Shown here: positions 5,071 through 50,155 of the stretch, piece after piece
Numbering within the stretch: position 1 is the first letter of the stretch
Layout of the letters: each line of letters starts with the position of its first letter
Assembly: GCA_965231075.1 (NCBI GenBank)
Contig: OZ246412.1
Span: forward strand, 170,019 to 234,018
Source of the DNA: an uncultured Candidatus Saccharibacteria bacterium
GTDB taxonomy: Bacteria; Patescibacteriota; Minisyncoccia; RBG-13-40-8-A
Direction: 5' to 3'
DNA length: 64,000 bases
The notes under the pieces: generated by a model
What the model saw: the letters and a program-made list of their open reading frames with translations, nothing else
What the model was told of the DNA's origin: nothing
Databases searched by the model: none
Program-made: the position numbers and the translations under genes

Positions 5071-5099
5071 TTGATAATTCTTTTTATCTAGCCTATAAT
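5071..5099 (+). promoter_or_regulatory. Sigma70-like promoter TTGATA-17-TATAAT. The alaS ATG starts 7 nt after the -10, which implies a leaderless mRNA.
   Basis: TTGATA at 5071-5076, a 17-nt spacer, TATAAT at 5094-5099, ATG at 5106. There is no room for a Shine-Dalgarno sequence. Confidence 0.6.
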
Positions 5100-5105
5100 T
5101 AGATT

Positions 5106-6776
5106 ATGACAACCAGAGAGTTGAAAGAAAAATATTTGAAATTTTTCGAGGAGAGGGGACATAAAATTATTCCTTCGGCTTCTTTGATTCCGGAAAACGA
5201 TCCGGGAGCCCTATTTATTTCCGCTGGCATGCATCCATTGGTGCCATATTTGTTGGGCGAAAAACATCCTATGGGTGATAAATTAGTTAATGTGCAAAAA
5301 TGCATAAGAACAGGAGACATCGATGATGTTGGCGATGATTGGCATTTAACGTTTTTTGAAATGTTGGGGAATTGGGGGCTTGGTAGTTATTGGAAAGAAG
5401 AATCAATTAAGATGAGTTTCGATTTTTTAACCAAAGAATTAAATTTACCAATTGAAAAGCTGTCGGTTACCTGTTTTCAGGGTGACGACAATGCCTCAAA
5501 AGATGAAATTTCGGCAAAAACCTGGGAATTGTTAGGAATTCCCAAAGATAAAATTAAATTTTTAGGAAAAGAAGACAATTGGTGGGGGCAATCAGCTGGT
5601 GGGCCTTGCGGTCCAGACACAGAGATTTTTTATGAAGGAGTGGAAATCTGGAATAATGTTTTTATGGAGTTTAATAAAACTGCCGACGGAAAACTCGAGT
5701 CACTTAAACAAAAAAATGTTGATACGGGGATGGGATTAGAAAGAACCACGGCAATTTTAAATAATGCAAAAAGCGTTTATGACATTGAACCGTTGAAGTC
5801 AATTATTGAAGCAATTAAAAAAATAGCGATTAATTACGACGAACGCTCGGCACGAATCATCGCTGATCATTTACGTGCGAGCGTTTTTATAGTTTCGGAT
5901 GGCATTATCCCGTCAAACGTTGAGCAGGGTTATGTTGTGCGACGTTTAATTAGAAGAGCGGTTAGATACGGAAAGAAAATTGGAATTAAAGATGTTTTTG
6001 TAAATGAAATCGGAAAACTGATAATTGAATTAATGGGCGATGAATGGCCAGAATTAAAGAAGAATGAAAAATTTATTTCGGAACAATTAAATCAAGAAGA
6101 AGAAAAATTTCTAAAAACCCTTAATAGGGGATTGAAAGAGTTTGAAAAAGGAACAGATCCATTTATTTTGTTTACCACCTACGGATTTCCTATTGAGATT
6201 ACCGAAGAGTTAGCTAAAGAAAAAGGAATAAAAATCGATAAAGAAAAATTTCAAAAAGAATTTCAACAACACCAAGAACTTTCCCGCACAGCAACTGCCG
6301 GAAAATTTAAATCAGGACTAGCAGATAATTCGGAGCAGGTTGTGAAATATCACACCGCCACACACTTATTATTGGCAGCGCTCCGAAAAATTTTAGGAGA
6401 TCATGTTTTTCAGAAGGGTTCTAATATTACTGCCGAAAGGTTACGTTTAGATTTTTCACATTCAGAAAAAATGACCGCGGATCAATTGAAACAGGCTGAA
6501 GATGCGGTTAACGAAGTAATTAAAAATAATTTGCCGGTCAATTGCGTAGAAGTGTCGTTGGAGAAAGCCAAAGAAATTGGCGCAATGGGAGTTTTCGAAT
6601 CGAAATACGGAGACAGAGTTAAGGTTTATTCCGTGGGAACCCCCGATTGTCCATATTCTTGCGAGATTTGTTCTGGCCCACACGTGCAAAAAACAAGTGA
6701 CTTGGGACATTTTAAAATTTTAAAAGAAGAAGCGTCTTCTTCCGGCGTTCGTCGCATTAAAGCAATTTTAAAATAA
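5106..6776 (+). CDS. alaS: Alanine--tRNA ligase, minimal form (556 aa). It has the aminoacylation domain and the editing domain but no C-Ala domain.
   Basis: N-terminus FFEERGHKIIPSASLIPENDPGALFISAGMHP, plus WHLTFFEMLGNW, GPCGPDTEIF, DTGMGLERT. Editing-site metal motifs HTATHLL and CSGPHV. It ends ~30 aa after the editing core. Confidence 0.85.
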   Translation: MTTRELKEKYLKFFEERGHKIIPSASLIPENDPGALFISAGMHPLVPYLLGEKHPMGDKLVNVQKCIRTGDIDDVGDDWHLTFFEMLGNWGLGSYWKEESIKMSFDFLTKELNLPIEKLSVTCFQGDDNASKDEISAKTWELLGIPKDKIKFLGKEDNWWGQSAGGPCGPDTEIFYEGVEIWNNVFMEFNKTADGKLESLKQKNVDTGMGLERTTAILNNAKSVYDIEPLKSIIEAIKKIAINYDERSARIIADHLRASVFIVSDGIIPSNVEQGYVVRRLIRRAVRYGKKIGIKDVFVNEIGKLIIELMGDEWPELKKNEKFISEQLNQEEEKFLKTLNRGLKEFEKGTDPFILFTTYGFPIEITEELAKEKGIKIDKEKFQKEFQQHQELSRTATAGKFKSGLADNSEQVVKYHTATHLLLAALRKILGDHVFQKGSNITAERLRLDFSHSEKMTADQLKQAEDAVNEVIKNNLPVNCVEVSLEKAKEIGAMGVFESKYGDRVKVYSVGTPDCPYSCEICSGPHVQKTSDLGHFKILKEEASSSGVRRIKAILK

Positions 6777-6799
6777 AAACATTTTATGATATAATATAG

Positions 6800-7897
6800 T
6801 TGATGAGAAATGTTATTGTTTTAGATATTGGAACACAATATGTGAAAGCCAAACTTTCAGATGTGTTCGTGAGAGAAAATTGCTCGGAGGACATTTTTTC
6901 ATCTTGCAAGAAAGCAGTTAAAAAAATTTTAAAAGAATCAAAAATAAAATCAGAAGATATTCTTTTGGGTGTCAATAATAACATTTTAAAAGGTAAAACC
7001 ACGACCCTTTGTTTGAAGAGAGAAAACTCACACAACAAAATTGATACAGCAGAATTAAAGTATTTAATCCAGAAACTAGAATGGAAGGCGCTAGACAACA
7101 TCCGCAAGGAATTTAGAGACGAGACAGAGTGTAAAGACACAGAAATTAAAATTATTGATGCATTCATTACGGACATTAAAATTGACAATAAGACAGTTGA
7201 AGATCCAATCGGTGAGCCAGGACAAAATATTTGTTTGAGTGTTTATAATATATACGCACCCATGCAAGTATTAGAAGGTTTGGAAAAATTAGTTGACGAC
7301 TTAAAAATGAATTTATTAGGTATTATTCCTAACGCTTATGCACTATATCGTTATTTAAGTTCAGATAAATTACAAAAAAGTGGAGCATTGATTATTGATA
7401 TCGGGGGAAAGTTAACAGAAATTACGTTAATCAAAAGTAACGGCGAAATAATTGATACGAAAAATTTTCACCTGGGAGGGCAAATTGTTAGTCAGGCCTT
7501 GGCCAACTTTCTTAATTTAAAATCAGAAGACATCGAAGACATTAAGGCGCAATACAGAAACGGAATCAGCACCGAAACCAAAAAGAAAATGGACAAGTTA
7601 TTTATACCTAGTACGTCTTTTTGGTTTAAGGGATTCAAAATTATCCTGAAAGATTTTTCAGAAAAATACGATTCTTTGCCGAATAAAATTTTCTTGTGTG
7701 GCGGTGGATCAAAAATGCCATTTATCGAATCCAATCTCAAAAAAGAAAAAAGTTTAAAAATTTTAAATATTGAAGAATCGGATGATAACAAAAACTTATC
7801 CTGTATCGCACTGGATCAATTAAGTTCTAATTTATTGGAAGAGAAAAATATATTTTCTCCAATTTTAAAAAGAGTAATAAAATTAATTCAAACTTAA
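6800..7897 (+). CDS. ftsA: Actin-fold ATPase, FtsA-like (possibly PilM-like), 365 aa
   Basis: VLDIGTQYVKAKL phosphate-1 motif, ALIIDIGGKLTEITLI phosphate-2/adenosine region and IFLCGGGSKMP, all typical of the FtsA/PilM family. There is no ftsZ downstream. Confidence 0.6.
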   Translation: MMRNVIVLDIGTQYVKAKLSDVFVRENCSEDIFSSCKKAVKKILKESKIKSEDILLGVNNNILKGKTTTLCLKRENSHNKIDTAELKYLIQKLEWKALDNIRKEFRDETECKDTEIKIIDAFITDIKIDNKTVEDPIGEPGQNICLSVYNIYAPMQVLEGLEKLVDDLKMNLLGIIPNAYALYRYLSSDKLQKSGALIIDIGGKLTEITLIKSNGEIIDTKNFHLGGQIVSQALANFLNLKSEDIEDIKAQYRNGISTETKKKMDKLFIPSTSFWFKGFKIILKDFSEKYDSLPNKIFLCGGGSKMPFIESNLKKEKSLKILNIEESDDNKNLSCIALDQLSSNLLEEKNIFSPILKRVIKLIQT

Positions 7898-9678: not shown

Positions 9679-9894
9679 ATGAAACAAGAAGGAACAAAGA
9701 AAGACGGAATTATTATAGAAGGATTGCCAAATGCAAACTTTAGAGTTAAGCTTGATGATGGATCAGAGGTTTTGGCACATGTTTCCGGTAAAATGAGAAT
9801 TCATTTTATTAAGATTTTGGCCGGAGATAGGGTAAAGATTGAACTGAGTCCTTATGACAGCACAAGAGGAAGAATCGTATATCGCGAAAAATAA
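9679..9894 (+). CDS. infA: Translation initiation factor IF-1
   Basis: 71 aa S1-like fold with [14 protein letters not shown]...[10 protein letters not shown]...[12 protein letters not shown]. Confidence 0.95.
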
Positions 9895-9963
9895 ATTAGC
9901 AAAGCTAATCTTATAGCGAATATAAATCTCTTGCAAAGATTGGTTTTTTATTAATAGAAGAGT

Positions 9964-10077
9964 ATGAAAGTTAGAACATCAGTCAAAAAGATATGTAGTA
10001 AATGTAAAATTGTAAGACGTAATCGTCGAGTTTACGTTATTTGTTCTAATCCTAAACACAAACAAAGACAAGGATAA
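9964..10077 (+). CDS. rpmJ: 50S ribosomal protein L36 (37 aa). It is absent from the supplied ORF track because it is below the length cutoff.
   Basis: [37 protein letters not shown] with the C-x2-C...C-x4-H zinc ribbon. It is in the canonical position between infA and rpsM. Confidence 0.9.
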
Positions 10078-10085
10078 TTTTAATT

Positions 10086-10481
10086 ATGCTAAGAATTGCC
10101 GGGATTATCGTCCCAGACAACAAGAGAATAGAAGTTGCTTTAACTTATATCTACGGAATAGGTCCGGTTTTGAGTAAAGAAATTTTAACTAAAGCAGGGA
10201 TAAATTTTGACACTAGAACAAAAGATTTAAATGAAAATCAGGCCACAAAATTAAGAGAAATTATTGAGGGCAGTGGCAAATATAAAATCGAAGGAGATTT
10301 GCGCAGAGAAAAAATGATGAACATAAAGCGTTTAAAAGAAATTAGTTGTTACCGTGGTCTCCGACATATCAAAGGATTGCCAGTAAGAGGACAAAACACC
10401 AAAACCAACAATCGAACAGTGAGGGGAAACAAAAGACAAACCATGGGAAGCGGCAGAAAGAAATCTGCAGAAAAAACATAA
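10086..10481 (+). CDS. rpsM: 30S ribosomal protein S13
   Basis: [26 protein letters not shown]...[19 protein letters not shown]. Confidence 0.95.
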
Positions 10482-10508
10482 AATTTTCCGCTAAAGCGGG
10501 ACAAGTAT

Positions 10509-10961
10509 ATGGGAAAGAAAAAAGTTATAAAAGAAACAACAGAAGAAGCTTTAAAAGCGGGTGAAGCAACTGATGCCAAAATAAAAGGCAAAAAAGAGGC
10601 CAAAGGTGGTCGTCATTTAGAACAGGCAAAGGTTTATATTCAGGCAACATACAACAATACAATTATTACAATGACCGACACAAACGGAAATGTTATTGCC
10701 AGTGAAAGTGCGGGCGCAGTTGGATTTAAGGGACCCAAAAAAGCTACTCCATTCGCTGCTTCAAGAGTTGTGGAGTCATTAATGAATAAAGTTAATAAAA
10801 CTGGGGTTAGAGAGGTGTTTGTTTTTGTAAAGGGCGTAGGTTCTGGTCGAGAAGGAGCAATCCGAGCGATTGCTGGAGCAGGGCTAGATATTCAGGCAAT
10901 TAAAGACATTACTCCAATTCCACATAACGGCTGTAGACCACCAAAACCTAGAAGAGTATAA
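10509..10961 (+). CDS. rpsK: 30S ribosomal protein S11
   Basis: YIQATYNNTIITMTDTNGNVIASESAG...ATPFAA...GAIRA core with a Lys-rich N-terminal extension. Confidence 0.9.
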   Translation: MGKKKVIKETTEEALKAGEATDAKIKGKKEAKGGRHLEQAKVYIQATYNNTIITMTDTNGNVIASESAGAVGFKGPKKATPFAASRVVESLMNKVNKTGVREVFVFVKGVGSGREGAIRAIAGAGLDIQAIKDITPIPHNGCRPPKPRRV

Positions 10962-10966
10962 AATAT

Positions 10967-11599
10967 ATGTTAAGAGGACCAGTTTGTAAAAAATGTAGAC
11001 GTTCAGGACAAAAACTCTTTTTACGAGAAGAGCGATGTTTTAGCGTAAAATGCGCAATGGTCAAAAAGCCATATGCTCCAGGAATGAAAGCAAAAAAACA
11101 CAAATCTGCCCTATCAGAATATGGTGCCCAGTTGGCCGAAAAACAAAAAATTAAGAAAATCTACGGTGTGACTGAAAGACAGTTCAGAAAATACTTTGAA
11201 GAAGCATCGAGAGTAAAGGGTACTGTTCCAGATATTTTAATTACGAAATTAGAAACCAGATTAGACAATGTTGTTTTTAGATTAGGGATTGCCAATTCTC
11301 GATCTAAAGCCAGACAAATAGTGGGTCATGGTCATATTTTATTAAATAATCACAGAGTTGATATTCCATCAATTCATGTTAAAAAAGGAGATATTGTCGC
11401 AATTAGACCAGAAAGTCTAAAAAAAGTTATTTTCAAGGATCTAGAAGAGAAAATCAAAAAACAAACCATCCCATCTTGGTTATCAATTGAAAACCAAACC
11501 GGAGGAGCGTTAAGGGCAACTGTTTCAGGATTCCCGGAAAGATCACAAGTTGATATCCCTGTTGATTTAGCAATGATTATTGAATTTTATTCAAGATAA
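10967..11599 (+). CDS. rpsD: 30S ribosomal protein S4
   Basis: N-terminal Cys cluster (CKKCRR...C...C), the S4 domain (RLDNVVFRLG...SRSKARQIVGHGHI) and its operon position. Confidence 0.95.
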   Translation: MLRGPVCKKCRRSGQKLFLREERCFSVKCAMVKKPYAPGMKAKKHKSALSEYGAQLAEKQKIKKIYGVTERQFRKYFEEASRVKGTVPDILITKLETRLDNVVFRLGIANSRSKARQIVGHGHILLNNHRVDIPSIHVKKGDIVAIRPESLKKVIFKDLEEKIKKQTIPSWLSIENQTGGALRATVSGFPERSQVDIPVDLAMIIEFYSR

Positions 11600-11640
11600 C
11601 AAATTAATTTATTCGCCGACGAGGCGGATTATATATAAAT

Positions 11641-12408
11641 ATGGAACACAAAATATCTCTGCCGATGAAACCGAAAGTTATTAAAAAAAGCGACAATCGT
11701 GCAATTTTTGAGATAGATAATTGTTATCCGGGCTATGGCATAACCATTGGCAATGCTTTTCGTAGAGTAATTTTGTCGTCTTTGCCAGGTGCGGCCATCA
11801 CTTCGGTAAAAATAAAAGGAGTGAGTCACGAATTTTCTACAATTCCTAATGTCTTAGAAGACGTAATTCAAATAATTTTAAATTTAAAACAAATAAGATT
11901 TAAGGTAAATGCGGACATTTCTTCATTGCAGATTGAATTAAAGGTTAACGGAGAAAAAGAAGTTAAAGCGAAAGATATTAAAACAACAGCAGAAATAGAG
12001 GTTGTTAACAAAGACGCACACATCGCAACACTCACTAGTCCTAAAGCGAAATTGGAAATGGAGTTGGAAATTGGAACGGGACTAGGATATGTGCCGGTTG
12101 AACAAAGGAAAAAAGACAAACTTGAAATTGGCGCAATCGCATTGGATGCAATCTATACTCCCGTAAAGAGGGTTAATTACGAAGTAGAAAACATGCGTGT
12201 TGGAGATAGAACCGACTTTAATCGAGTTAAAATCGACATCGAAACCGACGGAAGCGTTGAACCAGAATATGCCTTTAATCGAGCTGCGGAAATATTGCTT
12301 GAACAATTTGGCGTATTTACGCCCGAAACAGGAACGTTTAAAGAAGAAACAGAAATTAAATCCGAAAAGAAACAAATCAAAAAACAAACAAAAAAGAATA
12401 AAAAATAA
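11641..12408 (+). CDS. rpoA: DNA-directed RNA polymerase alpha subunit, N-terminal (dimerisation/assembly) domain only, 255 aa. There is no alpha-CTD.
   Basis: The alpha-NTD is present (ITIGNAFRRVILSSLPGAAITSVKIKGVSHEFSTI...). The protein ends in a Lys-rich tail and rplQ starts at the next base, so there is no coding space for a CTD. Confidence 0.85.
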   Translation: MEHKISLPMKPKVIKKSDNRAIFEIDNCYPGYGITIGNAFRRVILSSLPGAAITSVKIKGVSHEFSTIPNVLEDVIQIILNLKQIRFKVNADISSLQIELKVNGEKEVKAKDIKTTAEIEVVNKDAHIATLTSPKAKLEMELEIGTGLGYVPVEQRKKDKLEIGAIALDAIYTPVKRVNYEVENMRVGDRTDFNRVKIDIETDGSVEPEYAFNRAAEILLEQFGVFTPETGTFKEETEIKSEKKQIKKQTKKNKK

Positions 12409-12762
12409 ATGAGACATCGCAAAAAGAAACAAAAATTAGGTAGTTCGCCTCATCAACGCAAAGCGATTTTGTGTTCTTTGGCGACGGCGTTGATTTTGAA
12501 AGGAAGAATTTCTACAACCGAAGGTAAGGCGAAAAAAGTTAAACCATTTATTGAAAAAGCAATTACCAGGGCTAAAAAAAACACGCTTGCAGACAGAAGG
12601 TTGCTATTAATGGATTTTAAACCCAGAACAGTTGATAAGTTAATGAAAGATATTGCGCCCAAATATATTAATCAGGCCGGTGGTTATACAAGAATCATTA
12701 AAATTGGCCAAAGAAAAAACGATTCTGCGCCAATGGCTTTTATCGAGTTAATAAGTAAATAA
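12409..12762 (+). CDS. rplQ: 50S ribosomal protein L17
   Basis: MRHRKKKQKLGSSPHQRKAIL...TTEGKAKKVKPFIEK, a typical L17. Confidence 0.95.
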   Translation: MRHRKKKQKLGSSPHQRKAILCSLATALILKGRISTTEGKAKKVKPFIEKAITRAKKNTLADRRLLLMDFKPRTVDKLMKDIAPKYINQAGGYTRIIKIGQRKNDSAPMAFIELISK

Positions 12763-12766
12763 TTTC

Positions 12767-13126
12767 ATGGCAAAAGAATATACAATTGATGCTTCGGGAA
12801 AAAAATTAGGCAAATTGGCAACTGAAATTGCAGTTCTTTTGCGTGGCAAGAATAATACAGATTTTAAGGCCTATAAAGTTAGTGACAACAAGGTTGTTGT
12901 TTTTAACACAGAAAAAATTATATATACAGGGAACAAATTAGAAAATAAAATTTACCGACATCACTCTGGATATCCGGGGGGCGTTAGAGAAATAGCGCTG
13001 AAAGATTTAATTAAAAAGGATCCCAGCGCACCATTAAAGACGGCGGTAAGAGACATGCTTCCCAAAAACACACTAAGAGATAAAACAATTAAAAATTTAA
13101 AACTATATGCCGGAGAAATCAAATAA
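12767..13126 (+). CDS. rplM: 50S ribosomal protein L13
   Basis: IDASGKKLGKLATEIAVLLRGK...HHSGYPGG, typical of the L13 family. Confidence 0.95.
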   Translation: MAKEYTIDASGKKLGKLATEIAVLLRGKNNTDFKAYKVSDNKVVVFNTEKIIYTGNKLENKIYRHHSGYPGGVREIALKDLIKKDPSAPLKTAVRDMLPKNTLRDKTIKNLKLYAGEIK

Positions 13127-13634
13127 AACCAAGTCAATCAGAAAACCCAAGGTGCCTGATCAAGACAATGCTTCAACAGAATCATCTGATTTAGTTGATG
13201 TTTCAACAGAGAGAAAGCTTAAAAAATCAGAGTACATTGAAGCAATTGGCAGAAGAAAGAGGGCAGTGGCTCGCGTTCGACTTTTCACTGTTAGTCCATC
13301 AGAATCGATGGAAGCAGGAAATCTTATAGTTAACGATAAAAACTATAAACAATATTTCCCAACTCAAATTTTGCAACAGACAGTCGAATCTCCGTTTACA
13401 AAATTAAAATCAGCAAATCGATTTTCGGGGACAGTAAAAGTTAATGGTGGTGGAGTTTCTGGACAGGCCGAGGCGGTAAGGCATGGTATTTCTAGGGCAT
13501 TAATTATTTTTGATATTAATTTTAGAAAAAAATTAAAGAAAGCCGGCTTCTTGAAAAGAGATCCTCGAGAAAAAGAACGTCGCAAGTTTGGTCTCAAGAA
13601 AGCCCGCAAAGCCCCACAGTGGTCAAAACGTTAA
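13107..13634 (+). CDS. rpsI: 30S ribosomal protein S9 with a ~40 aa N-terminal extension
   Basis: GRRKRAVARVRL...GGGVSGQAEAVRHGISRAL...KARKAPQWSKR C-terminus. It overlaps rplM by 20 nt. Confidence 0.9.
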   Translation: MPEKSNKTKSIRKPKVPDQDNASTESSDLVDVSTERKLKKSEYIEAIGRRKRAVARVRLFTVSPSESMEAGNLIVNDKNYKQYFPTQILQQTVESPFTKLKSANRFSGTVKVNGGGVSGQAEAVRHGISRALIIFDINFRKKLKKAGFLKRDPREKERRKFGLKKARKAPQWSKR

Positions 13635-13750: not shown

Positions 13751-13780
13751 ATTGACAGAGAATACAGTGTTGTGGTATAA
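13751..13780 (+). promoter_or_regulatory. Sigma70-like promoter with an extended -10 (TTGACA-18-TGgTATAAT) for the CAP-sortase-surface protein operon
   Basis: TTGACA at 13751-13756 and TGGTATAAT at 13772-13780. The first plausible ATG (13789) is 8 nt downstream, so the mRNA is leaderless or nearly so. Confidence 0.6.
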
Positions 13781-13788
13781 TGATATAT

Positions 13789-21370: not shown

Positions 21371-21379
21371 TGTTATAAT
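21371..21379 (+). promoter_or_regulatory. Extended -10 element TGtTATAAT. The hydrogenase small-subunit ATG is 7 nt downstream, so the mRNA is leaderless.
   Basis: TGTTATAAT at 21371-21379, ATG at 21386. There is no obvious -35. Confidence 0.5.
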
Positions 21380-21385
21380 TTATTC

Positions 21386-22153
21386 ATGGTTAAAATCAAA
21401 CGAAAACCAGTAATTGCAATTTTGTCATTAACTTGTTGTGAAGGATGTCAAGTTGCGATTTTTGATTTAGGGGAAAGGTTTTTGGAATTTTTAACCAAAG
21501 TAAATATCGGTGATTTCCAATTAGCAGAAGAACTTCCTGATGTAAAAAAATATGATATTGCCATTGTTGAAGGTACAGCAATTACGAAAGCACAAATTAG
21601 AAGATTAAAGGAAGTTAGAAAGAAATCTAAAATATTAATCGCCATTGGTGCTTGTGCATTACTTGGAGGGCCACAAGAATTAAAAGATTATCGTGGCGAT
21701 AAAAACAAACTTATTAGACAAATTTATCCCAATGTTCGGGGGATTGATAATCCTAATGTAAAATCGGTCAAAGAAATGGTCAAAGTGGATTATGAAATTC
21801 CAGGTTGTCCAATAAACAAAGAAGAATTTTTTACAATCATCAATAAAATTTTAGAAAACAAAAAACCAAAAATTGAACAAAAACCAGTTTGTGAAGAATG
21901 CGTTAGAAAAAATAAGATGTGTTTATTGTTGTTAGGCAAACCATGTTTAGGGGCGATAACCCTGGCTGGTTGTGGCGCACCGTGTCCCAGAAGTGGTTTT
22001 ATGTGTGATGGATGTAGAGGACCGAAACAAAAAATTAATTTAAACGCAATGAAAAAAGCACTGAGAATTAAGGCACGATTAACTGACAACGAAATCGATA
22101 TGATTTTAGAAAGGTTCGGTAAGTGTAATGAATTAAAAAAAGCAAATTTATGA
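21386..22153 (+). CDS. [NiFe]-hydrogenase small (Fe-S) subunit, group 3/F420-nonreducing-like (255 aa)
   Basis: N-terminal proximal-cluster region (AILSLTCCEGCQ) and a C-terminal Cys-rich region (CEECVRKNKMC...CLGAITLAGCGAPCPRSGFMCDGCRGP). NuoB/hydrogenase-small fold. Confidence 0.8.
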   Translation: MVKIKRKPVIAILSLTCCEGCQVAIFDLGERFLEFLTKVNIGDFQLAEELPDVKKYDIAIVEGTAITKAQIRRLKEVRKKSKILIAIGACALLGGPQELKDYRGDKNKLIRQIYPNVRGIDNPNVKSVKEMVKVDYEIPGCPINKEEFFTIINKILENKKPKIEQKPVCEECVRKNKMCLLLLGKPCLGAITLAGCGAPCPRSGFMCDGCRGPKQKINLNAMKKALRIKARLTDNEIDMILERFGKCNELKKANL

Positions 22154-23406
22154 AATTAAGAATAGATCATATTGCGAAAATTGAAGGACATGCGAGTTTT
22201 ACCGCTGACATTGTTGACGGTGATGTTAGAGCGGCAAAAATTAAAATTGAAGAAGGAGCGAGATTATTTGAGGGTATTATGCAAGGCAGAAAGGACGAAG
22301 AAATCGCCGAGATTGGCTCAAGGATTTGTGGGGTGTGCCCAGTTGCTCATGTTTTTGCGGGTTTCAAAGCAATTGAAAACGCATATAAAATAGAGGTTAC
22401 TGAACCGGTATTGTCATTGAGAAAATTGATGTCTTTGGGGCAATTAATTAATAGTCACGCATTGCATTTATTTTTCTTTTCTTTGTCTGATTTTTTTGGA
22501 TTCAAAAGCGATTTAGAATTAGTGAATGCGTATCCTGAAAAAACTCACGATGCCGTGAAAATCAGAGACATTGGTAATAGATTAGTAGAAATTATTGGCG
22601 GAAGATCAATTCACCCCCTAACTCCTTGTATCGGCGGAATGAGAAAATCACCAGACACAAGCGAATTAAAGCAACTTTTAATTGATTGTCAGAATAATTT
22701 AGAATTAACTATAAAATTAGGTGAATTATTTATTAATCTAAAATATCCCGATTTTCATCGTCAAACAACTTTTGTTTCTCTTTACAATCCCAACGAATAT
22801 GCGATCTACGACGGACAAATTAAAGTTGATAAAATCGTGATGAAACCAGAAAATTTTATATCTTTACTTAAAGAAGTTCAAAAGGGTAATGATGTTGCTA
22901 AAAGAACGTCCTTTGCGGGTAAAAGTTATATGGTTGGAGCATTGGCAAGAATAAACAATCATCGAGAACAACTAAACCCACATGCCAAAGAATTATTAGA
23001 AAAATCTAAATTAAAATTTCCTTGTTATAATCCGTTTTACAATATTATGTGTCAAGCGATTGAATTAGTGCACTGTTTTGAGGAGGCAATCAAAATTTTG
23101 AATAAATTAATCAATCAAAAAATCGTTGTTTCGGAACCAAGGATAGAAAACACAAGTGGAACAGGAATTGGAATTGTCGAGGCGCCCAGAGGCATATTAT
23201 TTTATGGCACAGAAATAAAAGATAAAATTGTTAAGGGTATGGAAATTGTTTCGCCAACTTGTCAAAACCTTACCAACTTAGAGGCAGATTTAGAAGAATT
23301 TGAAAGATTGGGAGGATTTAAGAATTTAGATAAAAAAGAAAAAGAAGATAAGATTAAAATGTTAATTCGCGCATATGATCCTTGCGTAACTTGCGCAGTA
23401 CACTAA
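22150..23406 (+). CDS. [NiFe]-hydrogenase large (catalytic) subunit, 418 aa. It ends exactly at the C-terminal metal-binding motif with no cleavable extension.
   Basis: L1 motif RICGVCPVAH near the N-terminus and L2 motif DPCVTCAVH as the last 9 residues before the stop. Confidence 0.85.
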   Translation: MKLRIDHIAKIEGHASFTADIVDGDVRAAKIKIEEGARLFEGIMQGRKDEEIAEIGSRICGVCPVAHVFAGFKAIENAYKIEVTEPVLSLRKLMSLGQLINSHALHLFFFSLSDFFGFKSDLELVNAYPEKTHDAVKIRDIGNRLVEIIGGRSIHPLTPCIGGMRKSPDTSELKQLLIDCQNNLELTIKLGELFINLKYPDFHRQTTFVSLYNPNEYAIYDGQIKVDKIVMKPENFISLLKEVQKGNDVAKRTSFAGKSYMVGALARINNHREQLNPHAKELLEKSKLKFPCYNPFYNIMCQAIELVHCFEEAIKILNKLINQKIVVSEPRIENTSGTGIGIVEAPRGILFYGTEIKDKIVKGMEIVSPTCQNLTNLEADLEEFERLGGFKNLDKKEKEDKIKMLIRAYDPCVTCAVH

Positions 23407-25406: not shown

Positions 25407-25872
25407 TGTCGCAAATTAATATTCCGTTTAAGTGATCGGTTTCGTGTTGAATGGCACGCGCTAAAATTCCTTTGGCTTTAATTTTAAATTCTTTACCTTT
25501 TTCGTCTTTGGCTTTTATTTTTAGGGATTTTGCACGCTCTATTTTAACAAACGAGTTTGGTAAACTTAAACATCCTTCTTCAATTAATTCTGTTTTTTTG
25601 GACATTTTGATTATTTCTGGATTGATAAAGACACATTTTTGAGAATAATTCTTATCGATTATAAAAATACGCAAATTTTTTCCCACCTGGCAAGCAGATA
25701 AACCGATACCGTTTTCTTTAATGATGGTTTCTTGCATGTTCTTAATAAAATCTAAAATTTCTTCGTTTATTTCTTTAACGAAATCAGATTTTGTGCGCAA
25801 CGTTGGATTGTTTTTTCCAGTTCGTAATTTAAGTATCATAATATGTTTTCGGGGCTTATCTCTGTTTCCCAA
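25396..25872 (-). CDS. def: Peptide deformylase
   Basis: GIGLSACQVG, EGCLSLP and HETDHLNG metal-binding motifs. Confidence 0.95.
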   Translation of the reverse strand: MGNRDKPRKHIMILKLRTGKNNPTLRTKSDFVKEINEEILDFIKNMQETIIKENGIGLSACQVGKNLRIFIIDKNYSQKCVFINPEIIKMSKKTELIEEGCLSLPNSFVKIERAKSLKIKAKDEKGKEFKIKAKGILARAIQHETDHLNGILICDNVK

Positions 25873-27512
25873 GTTGGTGGGACAATAATTAATATTTCGT
25901 TTCTTTGCTCTGTCATTAGGCGTGATTTAATAATTATATTCCACTTATATATTCCTCTTTCTTTTGAGACAAAAGCCGGGCTTGGTCCAAATAAATTAAT
26001 TTTCAATTTCCAATTTTCAATTTTCAATTGCGCTTTGATTTGTTGCTCTAGTTTATTTTTTAAAATCAATGCATCATTTTTTGCCTTGATAAAATCTTTG
26101 TGTGAATATGATAATTTAATGATCTCAGAAAATGGGGGATAGTCGTATTTTTCCCTTGCCTCAATTTCCTCATTATAGAACGTATTAAAGTTATTTTCAA
26201 TGGCTAATTTTATGGTTTTATTGTCAGAATTATAGGTCTGAACAAGGAACTCGTTTTGAGCCATATTCATTAATTGGTTTATGATTTGAAAAACTCTTTC
26301 CGAACTTTTAAAATCAGGTAAATTCAGAATTGTATCAATAGAAATAATTGCCACTAAATCCGCATGTAATTCTTTGTCCAGAATCATTTGTGAGCCGACT
26401 AGGACTGTATTTTTGCTATTTTTAAATTCGGCAATAATTTTTTGTTGTTCGGCAGGTTTTTCAGAAATATCGCCATCAAGACGAAATACTTTCTTGTTGG
26501 GCCCGCCTGCCGGCGAGGCGGGGAAGAGCTTTTTGATTTCTGATTCTATTTTTTGCGTTCCGGCGCCAAGATATTTTATTTTGACGCTTTTACAGCTTGG
26601 ACAAAGCACTGGTGCAATATCGTCTTTTCCGCAGTGATGGCAAATCAGGCGTCGAGACGGTTTTTCTTCATGGTAAATCATAGGAACCTCGCAAGAGCGA
26701 CATTTAGCAATATATCCACATTCCCGACAAAGAACAATTGTTGACGTACCTTTTCTGGCAATAAATAAAATTGACTTATCAGCGACTTTTATTTTGTCTT
26801 GGAGTTCTTTGCTGATTACAGAAAAATTTCCGCCTTTCATCTCTTCGCGCATATCGATAATAAAATTTTCAATTTTCAATTTTCGATTTTCAATTAATAG
26901 TTTGTGTTTTTTTTGCTCTGCCCAATAATAATCTTCAACCGTTGGTGTGTTGGTTTTTAAGATTAATTTTGCATTATGAATTTTTGCCAATTGGATTGCA
27001 ATGTCTTTGACATTATAATACGGTCTTCGCCCCCACGATTGATATAGATCGCTTTCCGAATCTTCAACGGTAATTGATTTAAGATTTTTAAACGGTGCAA
27101 ATACTAGCCCCTTGGTTTTTGGCGTTAGGGTCAGGTTTTGTATCTTGTATCTTGTATCTTGTATCTTAAAATTTTTAGAAAGAAATATCCTTGCAAAAAG
27201 TCCGATTGGCGCGAAATAATATTCAGAAAGCCAGGTCAATAGTTCTATTTGCTTTTCATTTAGAATTTGTTCTGATTTTTTAATTTTCTCGATCGGTCTA
27301 ATTTCAAAATCAGCATATTTTTTAAGTCGTAATTTTTCTTGATCCATTGATTTACACTCTAATACGACGGCATCAATTTTTTTACTGCGTAGAGGAACCT
27401 TAATTAAAAAACCAGGGTTGATTTTAGAAACTGAAAAATAGCTCAAAATCTGTGAATTTGGCCTGGGAATTTTAATTAACGGAACAACATTAAGAATATA
27501 CATCAATTCCAT
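25836..27512 (-). CDS. priA: Primosomal protein N-prime (PriA)-like, 558 aa. It has the N-terminal 3-prime-DNA-binding domain and the Cys-rich zinc region, but Walker A and DExH helicase motifs are not recognisable.
   Basis: N-terminus ILNVVPLIKIPRP...LSYFSV. CRR: CRECGYIAKCRSC...CHHCGKDD...CPSCKS. No GxGKT or DEAH found. The gene contains 4x heptanucleotide tandem repeats. Confidence 0.6.
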   Translation of the reverse strand: MELMYILNVVPLIKIPRPNSQILSYFSVSKINPGFLIKVPLRSKKIDAVVLECKSMDQEKLRLKKYADFEIRPIEKIKKSEQILNEKQIELLTWLSEYYFAPIGLFARIFLSKNFKIQDTRYKIQNLTLTPKTKGLVFAPFKNLKSITVEDSESDLYQSWGRRPYYNVKDIAIQLAKIHNAKLILKTNTPTVEDYYWAEQKKHKLLIENRKLKIENFIIDMREEMKGGNFSVISKELQDKIKVADKSILFIARKGTSTIVLCRECGYIAKCRSCEVPMIYHEEKPSRRLICHHCGKDDIAPVLCPSCKSVKIKYLGAGTQKIESEIKKLFPASPAGGPNKKVFRLDGDISEKPAEQQKIIAEFKNSKNTVLVGSQMILDKELHADLVAIISIDTILNLPDFKSSERVFQIINQLMNMAQNEFLVQTYNSDNKTIKLAIENNFNTFYNEEIEAREKYDYPPFSEIIKLSYSHKDFIKAKNDALILKNKLEQQIKAQLKIENWKLKINLFGPSPAFVSKERGIYKWNIIIKSRLMTEQRNEILIIVPPTWETEISPENIL

Positions 27513-27527
27513 TTTATCATTTTAAGA

Positions 27528-27536
27528 TGTTATAAT
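27528..27536 (+). promoter_or_regulatory. Extended -10 TGtTATAAT. The thpR ATG is 7 nt downstream, so the mRNA is leaderless.
   Basis: TGTTATAAT at 27528-27536, ATG at 27543. Confidence 0.5.
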
Positions 27537-27542
27537 AAAGAC

Positions 27543-39989: not shown

Positions 39990-40020
39990 GTTCTAATTAT
40001 AAATCATTTTTAAATTATAA

Positions 40021-50137: not shown

Positions 50138-50155
50138 TTGTTTGTATTATAGCAC

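What the first reader, a model, noticed from the sequence alone, without database searches (positions are those of the whole stretch)
11641..12408. RNA polymerase alpha subunit lacks the entire C-terminal domain
rpoA encodes only the ~230-aa N-terminal assembly domain plus a short Lys-rich tail, and rplQ starts at the very next nucleotide. There is therefore no alpha-CTD. The alpha-CTD is the module that reads UP elements and contacts class I activators, so promoter recognition in this organism must rely on sigma and core contacts alone. This is consistent with the strong extended -10 elements seen here. A second, CTD-only alpha-like gene elsewhere cannot be excluded.
Basis: seen in the sequence. 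Interest (0 to 1): 0.5.

Follow-up and report, generated by a model that had tools for sequence, protein, structure and literature searches.

The report
RNA polymerase alpha without its C-terminal domain
This ultrasmall (Patescibacteria) bacterium really does encode an RNA polymerase alpha subunit with no C-terminal DNA- and activator-binding domain, a domain that is essential in E. coli and B. subtilis. The same loss occurs throughout its clade and appears to have happened several separate times in related lineages.

Summary
ORF 11641-12408 (255 aa) is a bona fide bacterial rpoA. It has the alpha N-terminal assembly domain (aa 1-~228), then a 27-aa Lys-rich, predicted-disordered tail. rplQ starts at 12409, directly after the TAA stop. 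No alpha-CTD (PF03118) is detectable in the protein or in any frame of the 64-kb window.

It is not a frameshift. The 120 closest homologues (68-100% identity) are all 239-275 aa with no CTD. Synteny is conserved on a relative's 523-kb contig.

Of 79 related Patescibacteria species genomes, 26 lack the CTD and 53 keep it. On a six-protein neighbour-joining (NJ) tree the losses fall in about 6-9 separate groups.

The tail aligns with the long charged interdomain linker of full-length relatives. Its basic charge is conserved in this clade, but its sequence is not.

A different CTD-less group (Komeilibacteria/Falkowbacteria-type) ends in a conserved canonical AT-hook (KKRGRPKK). This suggests that a tethered minimal DNA anchor can replace the CTD.

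A CTD encoded elsewhere in the genome is unlikely but not excluded. The open-access literature I searched did not describe any of this.

The parts
11641..12408 (+). rpoA: complete ORF of 255 aa including the TAA stop; alpha subunit without a C-terminal domain
   Evidence: TIGR02027 scores 260.6 bits (cut-off 227.8) and NF003519 scores 282 bits (cut-off 277).
11641..12324 (+). alpha N-terminal domain (aa 1-228): RNA_pol_L dimerisation domain with the RNA_pol_A_bac insert domain
   Evidence: Pfam PF01193 aa 30-223 and PF01000 aa 56-173. It aligns to E. coli alpha 1-~235 with the RR motif (E. coli R44/R45) conserved. The AF2 model has the expected secondary-structure elements, including helices 32-47 and 208-223.
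12325..12405 (+). 27-aa Lys-rich tail (aa 229-255), the retained interdomain linker; predicted disordered
   Evidence: pLDDT is below 50 with no secondary structure for aa 228-255. The tail aligns with the K/E-rich linker of full-length relatives L004/L003. All 120 clade members have a basic tail (net +5 to +17), but sequence identity is only 34% in the tail against 76% in the NTD.
12409..12762 (+). rplQ (L17), starting at the nucleotide after the rpoA stop; leaves no room for a CTD
   Evidence: PF01196, 106.5 bits; sequence read directly.
10967..11599 (+). rpsD (S4), immediately upstream of rpoA
   Evidence: PF00163 + PF01479.
9679..10961 (+). infA, rpmJ, rpsM, rpsK: the upstream part of the conserved alpha operon
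   Evidence: ORFs and translations. The syntenic Pfam-annotated locus L161 has eIF-1a, S13 and S11.
12767..13634 (+). rplM and rpsI, downstream of rplQ
   Evidence: ORFs. Syntenic locus L161 has Ribosomal_L13 and Ribosomal_S9.

Best explanation
This is the organism's genuine rpoA, and its alpha-CTD has been deleted in evolution. The organism is a Portnoybacteria-like member of the Parcubacteria/Patescibacteria. The loss is fixed throughout its clade. Shown: the gene encodes an intact alpha-NTD, the module that dimerises and scaffolds beta and beta'. It ends in what was the long, charged interdomain linker, and rplQ abuts it. Shown: close and distant relatives have the same architecture, and related Patescibacteria lineages lost the CTD separately several times. 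Inferred: RNA polymerase assembles normally on the NTD dimer. It cannot read UP elements or be recruited by class I (alpha-CTD-contacting) activators. Promoter recognition therefore rests on sigma, using the -10 and extended -10 elements and sometimes a -35. Many promoters here sit so that transcription would start at the ATG. Inferred, with about 40% probability: the disordered Lys-rich end of the tail makes non-specific electrostatic contacts with DNA upstream of -35. It would be a minimal tethered anchor rather than a sequence reader.
For: Domain content. No CTD in any frame of the window: tblastn with E. coli and B. subtilis CTDs gives a best E of 0.18, and an HMM built from 53 Patescibacteria CTDs, run with filters off, gives a best E of 0.3. 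Clade-wide: the 120 best homologues (68-100% identity) are all 239-275 aa with PF01000+PF01193 only and 0 of 120 hit the CTD HMM. The same gene order occurs on a relative's 522.9-kb contig. Across GTDB species genomes, 26 of 79 complete rpoA genes are 243-275 aa without a CTD and 53 are 308-331 aa with one. The gap from rpoA stop to rplQ start is -35 to +33 nt in the truncated ones, and none has a CTD hit within +-4 kb. Recurrence: an NJ tree of six concatenated proteins gives 8 state changes (6-9 in bootstraps, about 22 for shuffled states). CTD-less L056 and full-length L040 are 77.7% identical in the NTD. Tail equals linker, and its basic composition is conserved. The AT-hook precedent in another CTD-less group supports a DNA-contacting role for tails. 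Extended -10 enrichment and -10 boxes 6-7 nt from start codons. No A/T enrichment at -40 to -60 of 13 putative promoters, AT 0.53-0.66 against 0.65 window-wide.
Against: Only 64 kb of the genome could be searched, so a CTD or a second alpha gene elsewhere is not excluded. Alpha-CTD is reported as essential in E. coli and B. subtilis (PMC4495994), which makes natural loss a priori surprising. A DNA-anchor role for the tail is untested. Tails of other CTD-less clades are neutral or acidic: L047 and L048 have net charges of -6 and -10. Lys-richness could simply reflect AT-biased low-complexity drift in a 35% GC genome. The count of independent losses rests on a distance tree of 896 columns, not a full phylogenomic analysis.
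Confidence: 0.85

Rival explanations
1. The CTD is supplied in trans. Either the gene was split and a standalone CTD (or a CTD fused to another protein) is encoded elsewhere, or a second full-length rpoA paralogue exists, as Francisella has two alpha genes.
For: Only about 64 kb of a probably 0.5-1 Mb genome is visible, so nothing directly excludes it. Alpha-CTD is essential in model bacteria.
Against: There is no CTD in any frame of the window, and tblastn with E. coli and B. subtilis alpha finds only one alpha-like gene. None of the 26 CTD-less loci has a CTD within +-4 kb. A metagenome scan with a Patescibacteria CTD profile found the CTD in the same ORF as an NTD in all 77 assessable loci of the best 80. 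If the roughly one-third of species without a CTD had a conserved standalone copy, many orphan CTDs would be expected. A CTD not tethered to the NTD would have no known way of joining the polymerase (established knowledge). All hits above 68% identity are CTD-less, so no close paralogue is seen.
Confidence: 0.07
2. Artefact: a sequencing frameshift, premature stop, assembly chimera or pseudogene truncates a normal rpoA.
For: A-rich homopolymer runs near the 3' end (12370-12405) are error-prone.
Against: rplQ begins at the next base, so no CTD-coding sequence exists downstream in any frame. The same architecture is seen in 120 independently assembled homologues and in 26 GTDB species genomes. 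The NTD is highly conserved (76% mean identity), as expected for a functional gene.
Confidence: 0.01
3. It is an archaeal or eukaryotic-type Rpo3/RpoD/Rpb3-like subunit, which naturally lacks a CTD, acquired horizontally or coming from a mis-binned archaeal contig.
For: Two homologues carry archaeal organism names in NCBI (P0023 Nanoarchaeota, P0109 Thermoplasmata). There is a weak hit to archaeal subunit D models.
Against: Bacterial rpoA equivalogs score 250-282 bits, against 34 bits for archaeal NF001988 (cut-off 153). The gene sits in the bacterial rpsM-rpsK-rpsD-rpoA-rplQ operon. The nearest full-length relatives are Patescibacteria RpoA at 67% identity.
Confidence: 0.01

Closest known systems
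Canonical bacterial RpoA (E. coli, B. subtilis, Thermus; TIGR02027 / PRK05182)
   Same: Same family. The NTD is 38-43% identical to E. coli and B. subtilis alpha and has both Pfam NTD domains. Equivalog scores are above cut-off, and the operon position between rpsD and rplQ is the same.
   Different: It lacks the ~85-aa helix-hairpin-helix alpha-CTD (PF03118), which binds UP elements and activators and is reported as essential in E. coli and B. subtilis (PMC4495994).
Full-length RpoA of neighbouring Patescibacteria (e.g. L004 and L003, 318 and 322 aa)
   Same: 67% identical NTD, the same operon, and the same long K/E-rich segment after the NTD.
   Different: In the neighbours that segment is a linker leading to a conserved CTD (...EGMGEKG[IV]KEIKK...). 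In the window's clade the protein stops within or after the linker.
Engineered alpha truncations (E. coli alpha 1-235 as in PDB 1BDF; B. subtilis RpoA-del)
   Same: Same domain content: the NTD alone. PDB alpha-NTD constructs of 229-242 aa align over the window's aa 15-227. From established knowledge, such truncated alpha assembles active core enzyme that performs basal but not UP- or class I-activated transcription.
   Different: Those are laboratory constructs that cannot support growth. Here the truncation is natural, fixed and evidently viable.
Archaeal Rpo3 (subunit D) / eukaryotic Rpb3-AC40
   Same: Homologous assembly platform that naturally has no alpha-CTD-like domain.
   Different: It is not a member. 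The archaeal model NF001988 scores 34 bits against a cut-off of 153. Those subunits heterodimerise with Rpo11/Rpb11, and no such partner is evident here.
AT-hook-tailed CTD-less RpoA of Komeilibacteria/Falkowbacteria-type Patescibacteria (found here), and WhiB7, an AT-hook protein tethered to RNA polymerase via sigma
   Same: A short basic DNA-binding element is tethered to the polymerase by a flexible segment, in place of or alongside a folded DNA-binding domain. WhiB7 contacts promoter DNA through an AT-hook (PMC8786299).
   Different: The window's tail has no RGRP core; 0 of 120 clade members carry one. It is merely Lys-rich. No binding has been demonstrated for any of these alpha tails.

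Membership tests
Bacterial RNA polymerase alpha subunit (RpoA; TIGR02027 / PRK05182) | RNA_pol_L dimerisation domain (PF01193) interrupted by the RpoA insert domain (PF01000) | tested here: met
   PF01193 77.7 bits (aa 30-223); PF01000 114.2 bits (aa 56-173).
Bacterial RNA polymerase alpha subunit (RpoA; TIGR02027 / PRK05182) | Whole-protein score above the curated equivalog cut-off | tested here: met
   TIGR02027 scores 260.6 against 227.8, and NF003519 scores 282 against 277. Six other rpoA equivalogs fall below their cut-offs because the CTD part of the model is unmatched.
Bacterial RNA polymerase alpha subunit (RpoA; TIGR02027 / PRK05182) | C-terminal helix-hairpin-helix domain (alpha-CTD, PF03118) | tested here: not met
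   No Pfam hit at E<=1. Model and PDB alignments stop at about residue 250. A clade-specific CTD HMM finds nothing in the window.
Bacterial RNA polymerase alpha subunit (RpoA; TIGR02027 / PRK05182) | Position in the conserved rpsM-rpsK-rpsD-rpoA-rplQ operon | tested here: met
Bacterial RNA polymerase alpha subunit (RpoA; TIGR02027 / PRK05182) | Assembles as a dimer with beta and beta' into active core enzyme | not testable with these tools
   Only inferred from the conserved NTD (76% identity within the clade; 38-43% to E. coli and B. subtilis alpha).
Archaeal Rpo3 / subunit D (NF001988, NF011548) | Score above the curated cut-off of the archaeal subunit D models | tested here: not met
   34.4 bits against 153; 17.4 bits against 194.
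   The motif is absent from the window protein and from all 120 clade homologues. It is present in 120 of 120 hits of the A3 profile.

The most novel reading that the evidence does not exclude
Alpha-CTD, usually treated as a universal feature of bacterial RNA polymerase, is dispensable in ultrasmall Patescibacteria and has been discarded repeatedly. What remains is not inert. The flexible tail after the alpha-NTD has been shaped into a minimal tethered DNA anchor. In this clade it is a conserved Lys-rich end, and in the Komeilibacteria/Falkowbacteria-type group it is a canonical AT-hook on an acidic spacer. That anchor would functionally replace the CTD-upstream DNA contact without any activator-docking surface.
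Probability: 0.35. Interest if true: 0.8.

Novelty: new variant of a known kind. Interest (0 to 1): 0.62.

Why it matters
Alpha-CTD is the textbook route by which bacterial RNA polymerase reads UP elements and is recruited by class I activators. It is reported as essential in E. coli and B. subtilis. A natural, clade-wide and recurrently evolved polymerase without it gives a minimal bacterial transcription initiation apparatus to study. It predicts that these organisms have no UP-element or class I regulation. That fits their tiny regulatory repertoire and their -10-centred, often apparently leaderless, promoters. It also offers a direct test of what the CTD is needed for. The AT-hook variant suggests a simple replacement solution that could be tested biochemically. 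On the practical side, rpoA length and domain filters used for genome-quality or marker-gene work should not treat these short genes as truncated.

Tried and rejected
1. The frameshift or artefact explanation is rejected.

2. A protein-database search with the 70-aa CTD of the nearest full-length relative returned nothing, because the word index is too insensitive for so short a query. I replaced it with a metagenome DNA scan using a CTD alignment.

3. I tested whether extended -10 enrichment is linked to CTD loss. Enrichment is the same in CTD-less and CTD-bearing relatives, so it is not usable as support.

4. I looked for UP-like A/T enrichment at -40 to -60 of 13 putative promoters and found none. 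The sample is small. The result is consistent with no UP elements, but it gives no support for an A/T-specific role of the tail.

5. The AlphaFold model from 37 close homologues reached only a mean pLDDT of 62.9. I used it only for the secondary-structure pattern and tail disorder, and ran no fold search.

6. Rfam and tRNA scans of the window were empty.

7. Nine literature searches found no description of CTD-less or AT-hook RpoA in Patescibacteria/CPR (one search retrieved the CTD-essentiality paper PMC4495994). Absence from this open-access library does not prove the finding is new.

8. The archaeal-type subunit D idea is rejected on family scores.

Full report
**1. The observation**

The ORF at 11641-12408 (+) starts with ATG, encodes 255 aa and ends with TAA at 12406-12408. 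The ATG of the next gene is at 12409.

Pfam finds the two alpha N-terminal modules: RNA_pol_L PF01193 (aa 30-223) and RNA_pol_A_bac PF01000 (aa 56-173). It finds no RNA_pol_A_CTD even at E<=1. The next gene is rplQ (PF01196) and the previous one is rpsD.

NCBIfam rpoA equivalogs match only up to model positions about 232-251 of 298-344. Two of them still pass their curated cut-offs: TIGR02027 at 260.6 against 227.8, and NF003519 at 282 against 277. Solved RpoA chains align only through their first ~246 residues or fewer.

A global alignment to E. coli alpha places the last 27 residues (ETGTFKEETEIKSEKKQIKKQTKKNKK) opposite the E. coli interdomain linker. Nothing lies opposite the CTD.

**2. 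Is a CTD hidden nearby, or is this an error?**

tblastn of the E. coli and B. subtilis CTDs against the window gives nothing better than E = 0.18. The full-length proteins hit only 11641-12318, so there is a single alpha-like gene in the window.

I built an HMM from the CTDs of 53 related Patescibacteria and ran it with all filters off on every stop-to-stop frame of 30 aa or more. The best hit had E = 0.3.

The window is an ordinary Patescibacteria chromosomal stretch. It carries dnaK/dnaJ, mnmA, alaS, infA-rpmJ-rpsM-rpsK-rpsD-rpoA-rplQ-rplM-rpsI, a sortase and surface proteins. It also has NiFe-hydrogenase subunits, fmt/def/priA, glycosyltransferases, rplI, xerC-like, murG/ftsW/mraY, greA, mreBCD and aminoacyl-tRNA synthetases. 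Nothing resembles a CTD carrier.

**3. The architecture is clade-wide**

The 120 best database homologues (68-100% identical) are all 239-275 aa. Their precomputed Pfam content is PF01000+PF01193 only. Where a source names them, they are labelled Patescibacteria or Candidatus Portnoybacteria. None hits the CTD HMM.

A relative with 74% identity (P0059) sits on a 522.9-kb contig. Its gene order matches the window over 20 kb, and rplQ overlaps the end of its 264-aa rpoA. An error in this one sequence is therefore excluded.

**4. Distribution among relatives**

A scan of one genome per GTDB species returned 80 Patescibacteria loci. Of the 79 complete rpoA genes:
- 53 are 308-331 aa and have a conserved helix-hairpin-helix CTD (...EGMGEKGIKEIKK...LKQ).
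- 26 are 243-275 aa and lack it.

None of the 26 has a CTD within +-4 kb in any frame. In the truncated set, rplQ starts between -35 and +33 nt from the rpoA stop.

I built an NJ tree of concatenated S13, S11, S4, alpha-NTD, L17 and L13 (896 columns). On it the CTD-less genes form several separate groups:
- the window's clade (window, L001, L002), sister to full-length L003/L004;
- a Moraniibacteriota subclade;
- L047/L048;
- a Nealsonbacteria-like group;
- singletons.

Parsimony needs 8 changes (6-9 over 50 bootstraps), against about 22 when states are shuffled. CTD-less L056 and full-length L040 are 77.7% identical in the NTD. The loss therefore looks recurrent and in places recent. The exact count depends on a simple distance tree.

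Among the 150 best representatives of 50%-identity clusters, 89 have a CTD. About 35 of the remainder are complete-looking proteins that end in charged low-complexity tails.

**5. What the tail is**

In alignments, the tails of the CTD-less proteins lie opposite the unusually long (about 35-45 aa) K/E-rich linker of the full-length relatives. The simplest history is deletion of the CTD with retention of the linker.

Within the window's clade the tail is 12-47 aa (median 29) and always net basic (+5 to +17, median +10). The charge is concentrated in the last 12 residues. Sequence identity is only 34%, against 76% for the NTD. AlphaFold predicts no structure there: pLDDT is below 50 for aa 228-255 in a modest model with a mean of 62.9.

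Other CTD-less groups differ. Nealsonbacteria-like tails are strongly basic (+12 to +15). Moraniibacteriota tails are about neutral. L047 and L048 are acidic at -6 and -10.

**6. An unexpected relative: AT-hook alpha**

Four CTD-less cluster representatives (P0151, P0177, P0178, P0263) are only 38-49% identical to one another. All have a 40-70-aa acidic, unconserved spacer that ends in KK(K)RGRPKK, a canonical AT-hook.

A profile search with these four returned 120 proteins of 265-330 aa, named Komeilibacteria, Falkowbacteria or Parcubacteria/Patescibacteria group. None has a CTD. All 120 carry the motif 2-6 residues from the C-terminus. The motif is absent from all 120 members of the window's clade and from all 53 full-length genes.

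One caveat: the query profile contained the motif, so the ranking favours proteins that carry it.

An invariant DNA-binding motif at the end of an otherwise unconstrained tail is good evidence that, in that group at least, the tail contacts DNA. It would do so where the CTD would have. A precedent for an AT-hook tethered to RNA polymerase is WhiB7 (PMC8786299).

**7. Promoters**

TGNTATAAT occurs 14 times in the window against 4.6 expected; 0 of 100 shuffles reach 14.

The enrichment is similar in relatives with and without a CTD: observed/expected is 1.82 and 2.18 respectively. It therefore says little about the loss.

-10-like hexamers peak sharply 6-7 nt upstream of start codons. This applies to 12 of 61 genes, against a background of about one per position. 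It suggests leaderless transcripts.

Thirteen putative promoters show no A/T enrichment at -40 to -60: AT is 0.53-0.66 against 0.65 overall. There is no sign of UP elements.

**8. Could the CTD be supplied in trans?**

This cannot be excluded from 64 kb of sequence. Evidence against it comes from a metagenome scan with a Patescibacteria CTD alignment. In all 77 assessable loci of the best 80, the CTD lay in the same ORF as an NTD, with no orphan.

If a third of species carried a conserved standalone CTD, orphans should have appeared. A strongly diverged orphan would have been missed. I put this rival at about 7%.

**9. Comparison with what is known**

The protein is a member of the bacterial RpoA family on every tested criterion except the CTD. 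It is not an archaeal D-type subunit: 34 bits against a cut-off of 153.

Functionally it corresponds to the laboratory alpha(1-235)-type truncations. Those do not support growth of E. coli or B. subtilis, where the CTD is reported as essential (PMC4495994).

Nine full-text searches found no description of CTD-less or AT-hook alpha in Patescibacteria. This is weak evidence of novelty, because subscription literature and supplementary tables are not covered.

**10. Verdict**

The finding is real and correctly interpreted. It is a natural, clade-wide variant of bacterial RNA polymerase alpha that lacks the CTD, and it is part of a recurrent pattern in Patescibacteria.

- Shown: the domain content, its conservation, its patchy phylogenetic distribution, that the tail corresponds to the linker, and the AT-hook variant elsewhere.
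- Inferred: normal core assembly, absence of UP-element and class I regulation, and sigma-centred promoter recognition.
- Inferred with about 40% confidence: a non-specific DNA-anchoring role for the Lys-rich tail.

Noticed in passing
Proteins P0151, P0177, P0178, P0263 and P0271-P0386 (not in the window): A large group of Patescibacteria RpoA proteins (labelled Komeilibacteria, Falkowbacteria, Parcubacteria group) has no alpha-CTD. Instead each has an acidic unconserved spacer ending in a conserved canonical AT-hook, KK(K)RGRPKK, 2-6 residues from the C-terminus. This holds for 120 of 120 profile hits.
   Followed up: partly
L001-L080, e.g. L056 vs L040, L022 vs L039, L054 vs L033: Alpha-CTD presence is patchy among related Patescibacteria: 26 of 79 species genomes lack it. 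On an NJ tree the losses fall in about 6-9 separate groups. Some CTD-less and CTD-bearing pairs are 68-78% identical in the NTD.
   Followed up: partly
window 5091-5105, 6787-6802, 13773-13788, 21371-21385, 27513-27542, 39990-40004, 50138-50154: -10 and extended -10 boxes end 6-8 nt before start codons, giving a sharp peak at 6-7 nt for 12 of 61 genes. Transcription would then start at the ATG (leaderless mRNAs). Other genes keep GGAGG Shine-Dalgarno sites. Genes 27512(-) and 27543(+) share a 30-bp spacer with back-to-back -10 boxes.
   Followed up: partly
window 12406-12411: rpoA and rplQ are in the same reading frame, separated only by one TAA codon, so stop-codon readthrough would fuse alpha to L17. 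The spacing is not conserved in relatives (-35 to +33 nt), so this is probably coincidence.
   Followed up: partly
window 11614-11626: A small GC-rich hairpin (CGCC-GACGA-GGCG) lies in the otherwise AT-rich 41-nt rpsD-rpoA spacer. It is followed by TATATATAAAT directly before the rpoA ATG. This could be an internal regulatory or processing element, or a promoter.
   Followed up: no
window 5106-6776: The alanyl-tRNA synthetase is only 556 aa: catalytic core plus the tRNA_SAD domain, with no C-terminal C-Ala region. The syntenic gene in L161 is 583 aa. This is another example of domain shedding in this lineage.
   Followed up: no
window 25836-27512 (-): The PriA-like protein (557 aa) gives Pfam hits only to the 3'-DNA-binding, Cys-rich and C-terminal PriA domains. 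No helicase-core family passes E<=0.001.
   Followed up: no
P0023, P0109: Two bacterial-type CTD-less RpoA proteins are labelled in NCBI as coming from Nanoarchaeota and Thermoplasmata MAGs. These are most likely Patescibacteria contigs mis-binned into archaeal genomes.
   Followed up: no
window 21386-23406: NiFe-hydrogenase small (Oxidored_q6) and large (NiFeSe_Hases) subunit genes lie next to the ribosomal/surface-protein region. They are also present in the syntenic locus L161, together with hypC.
   Followed up: no
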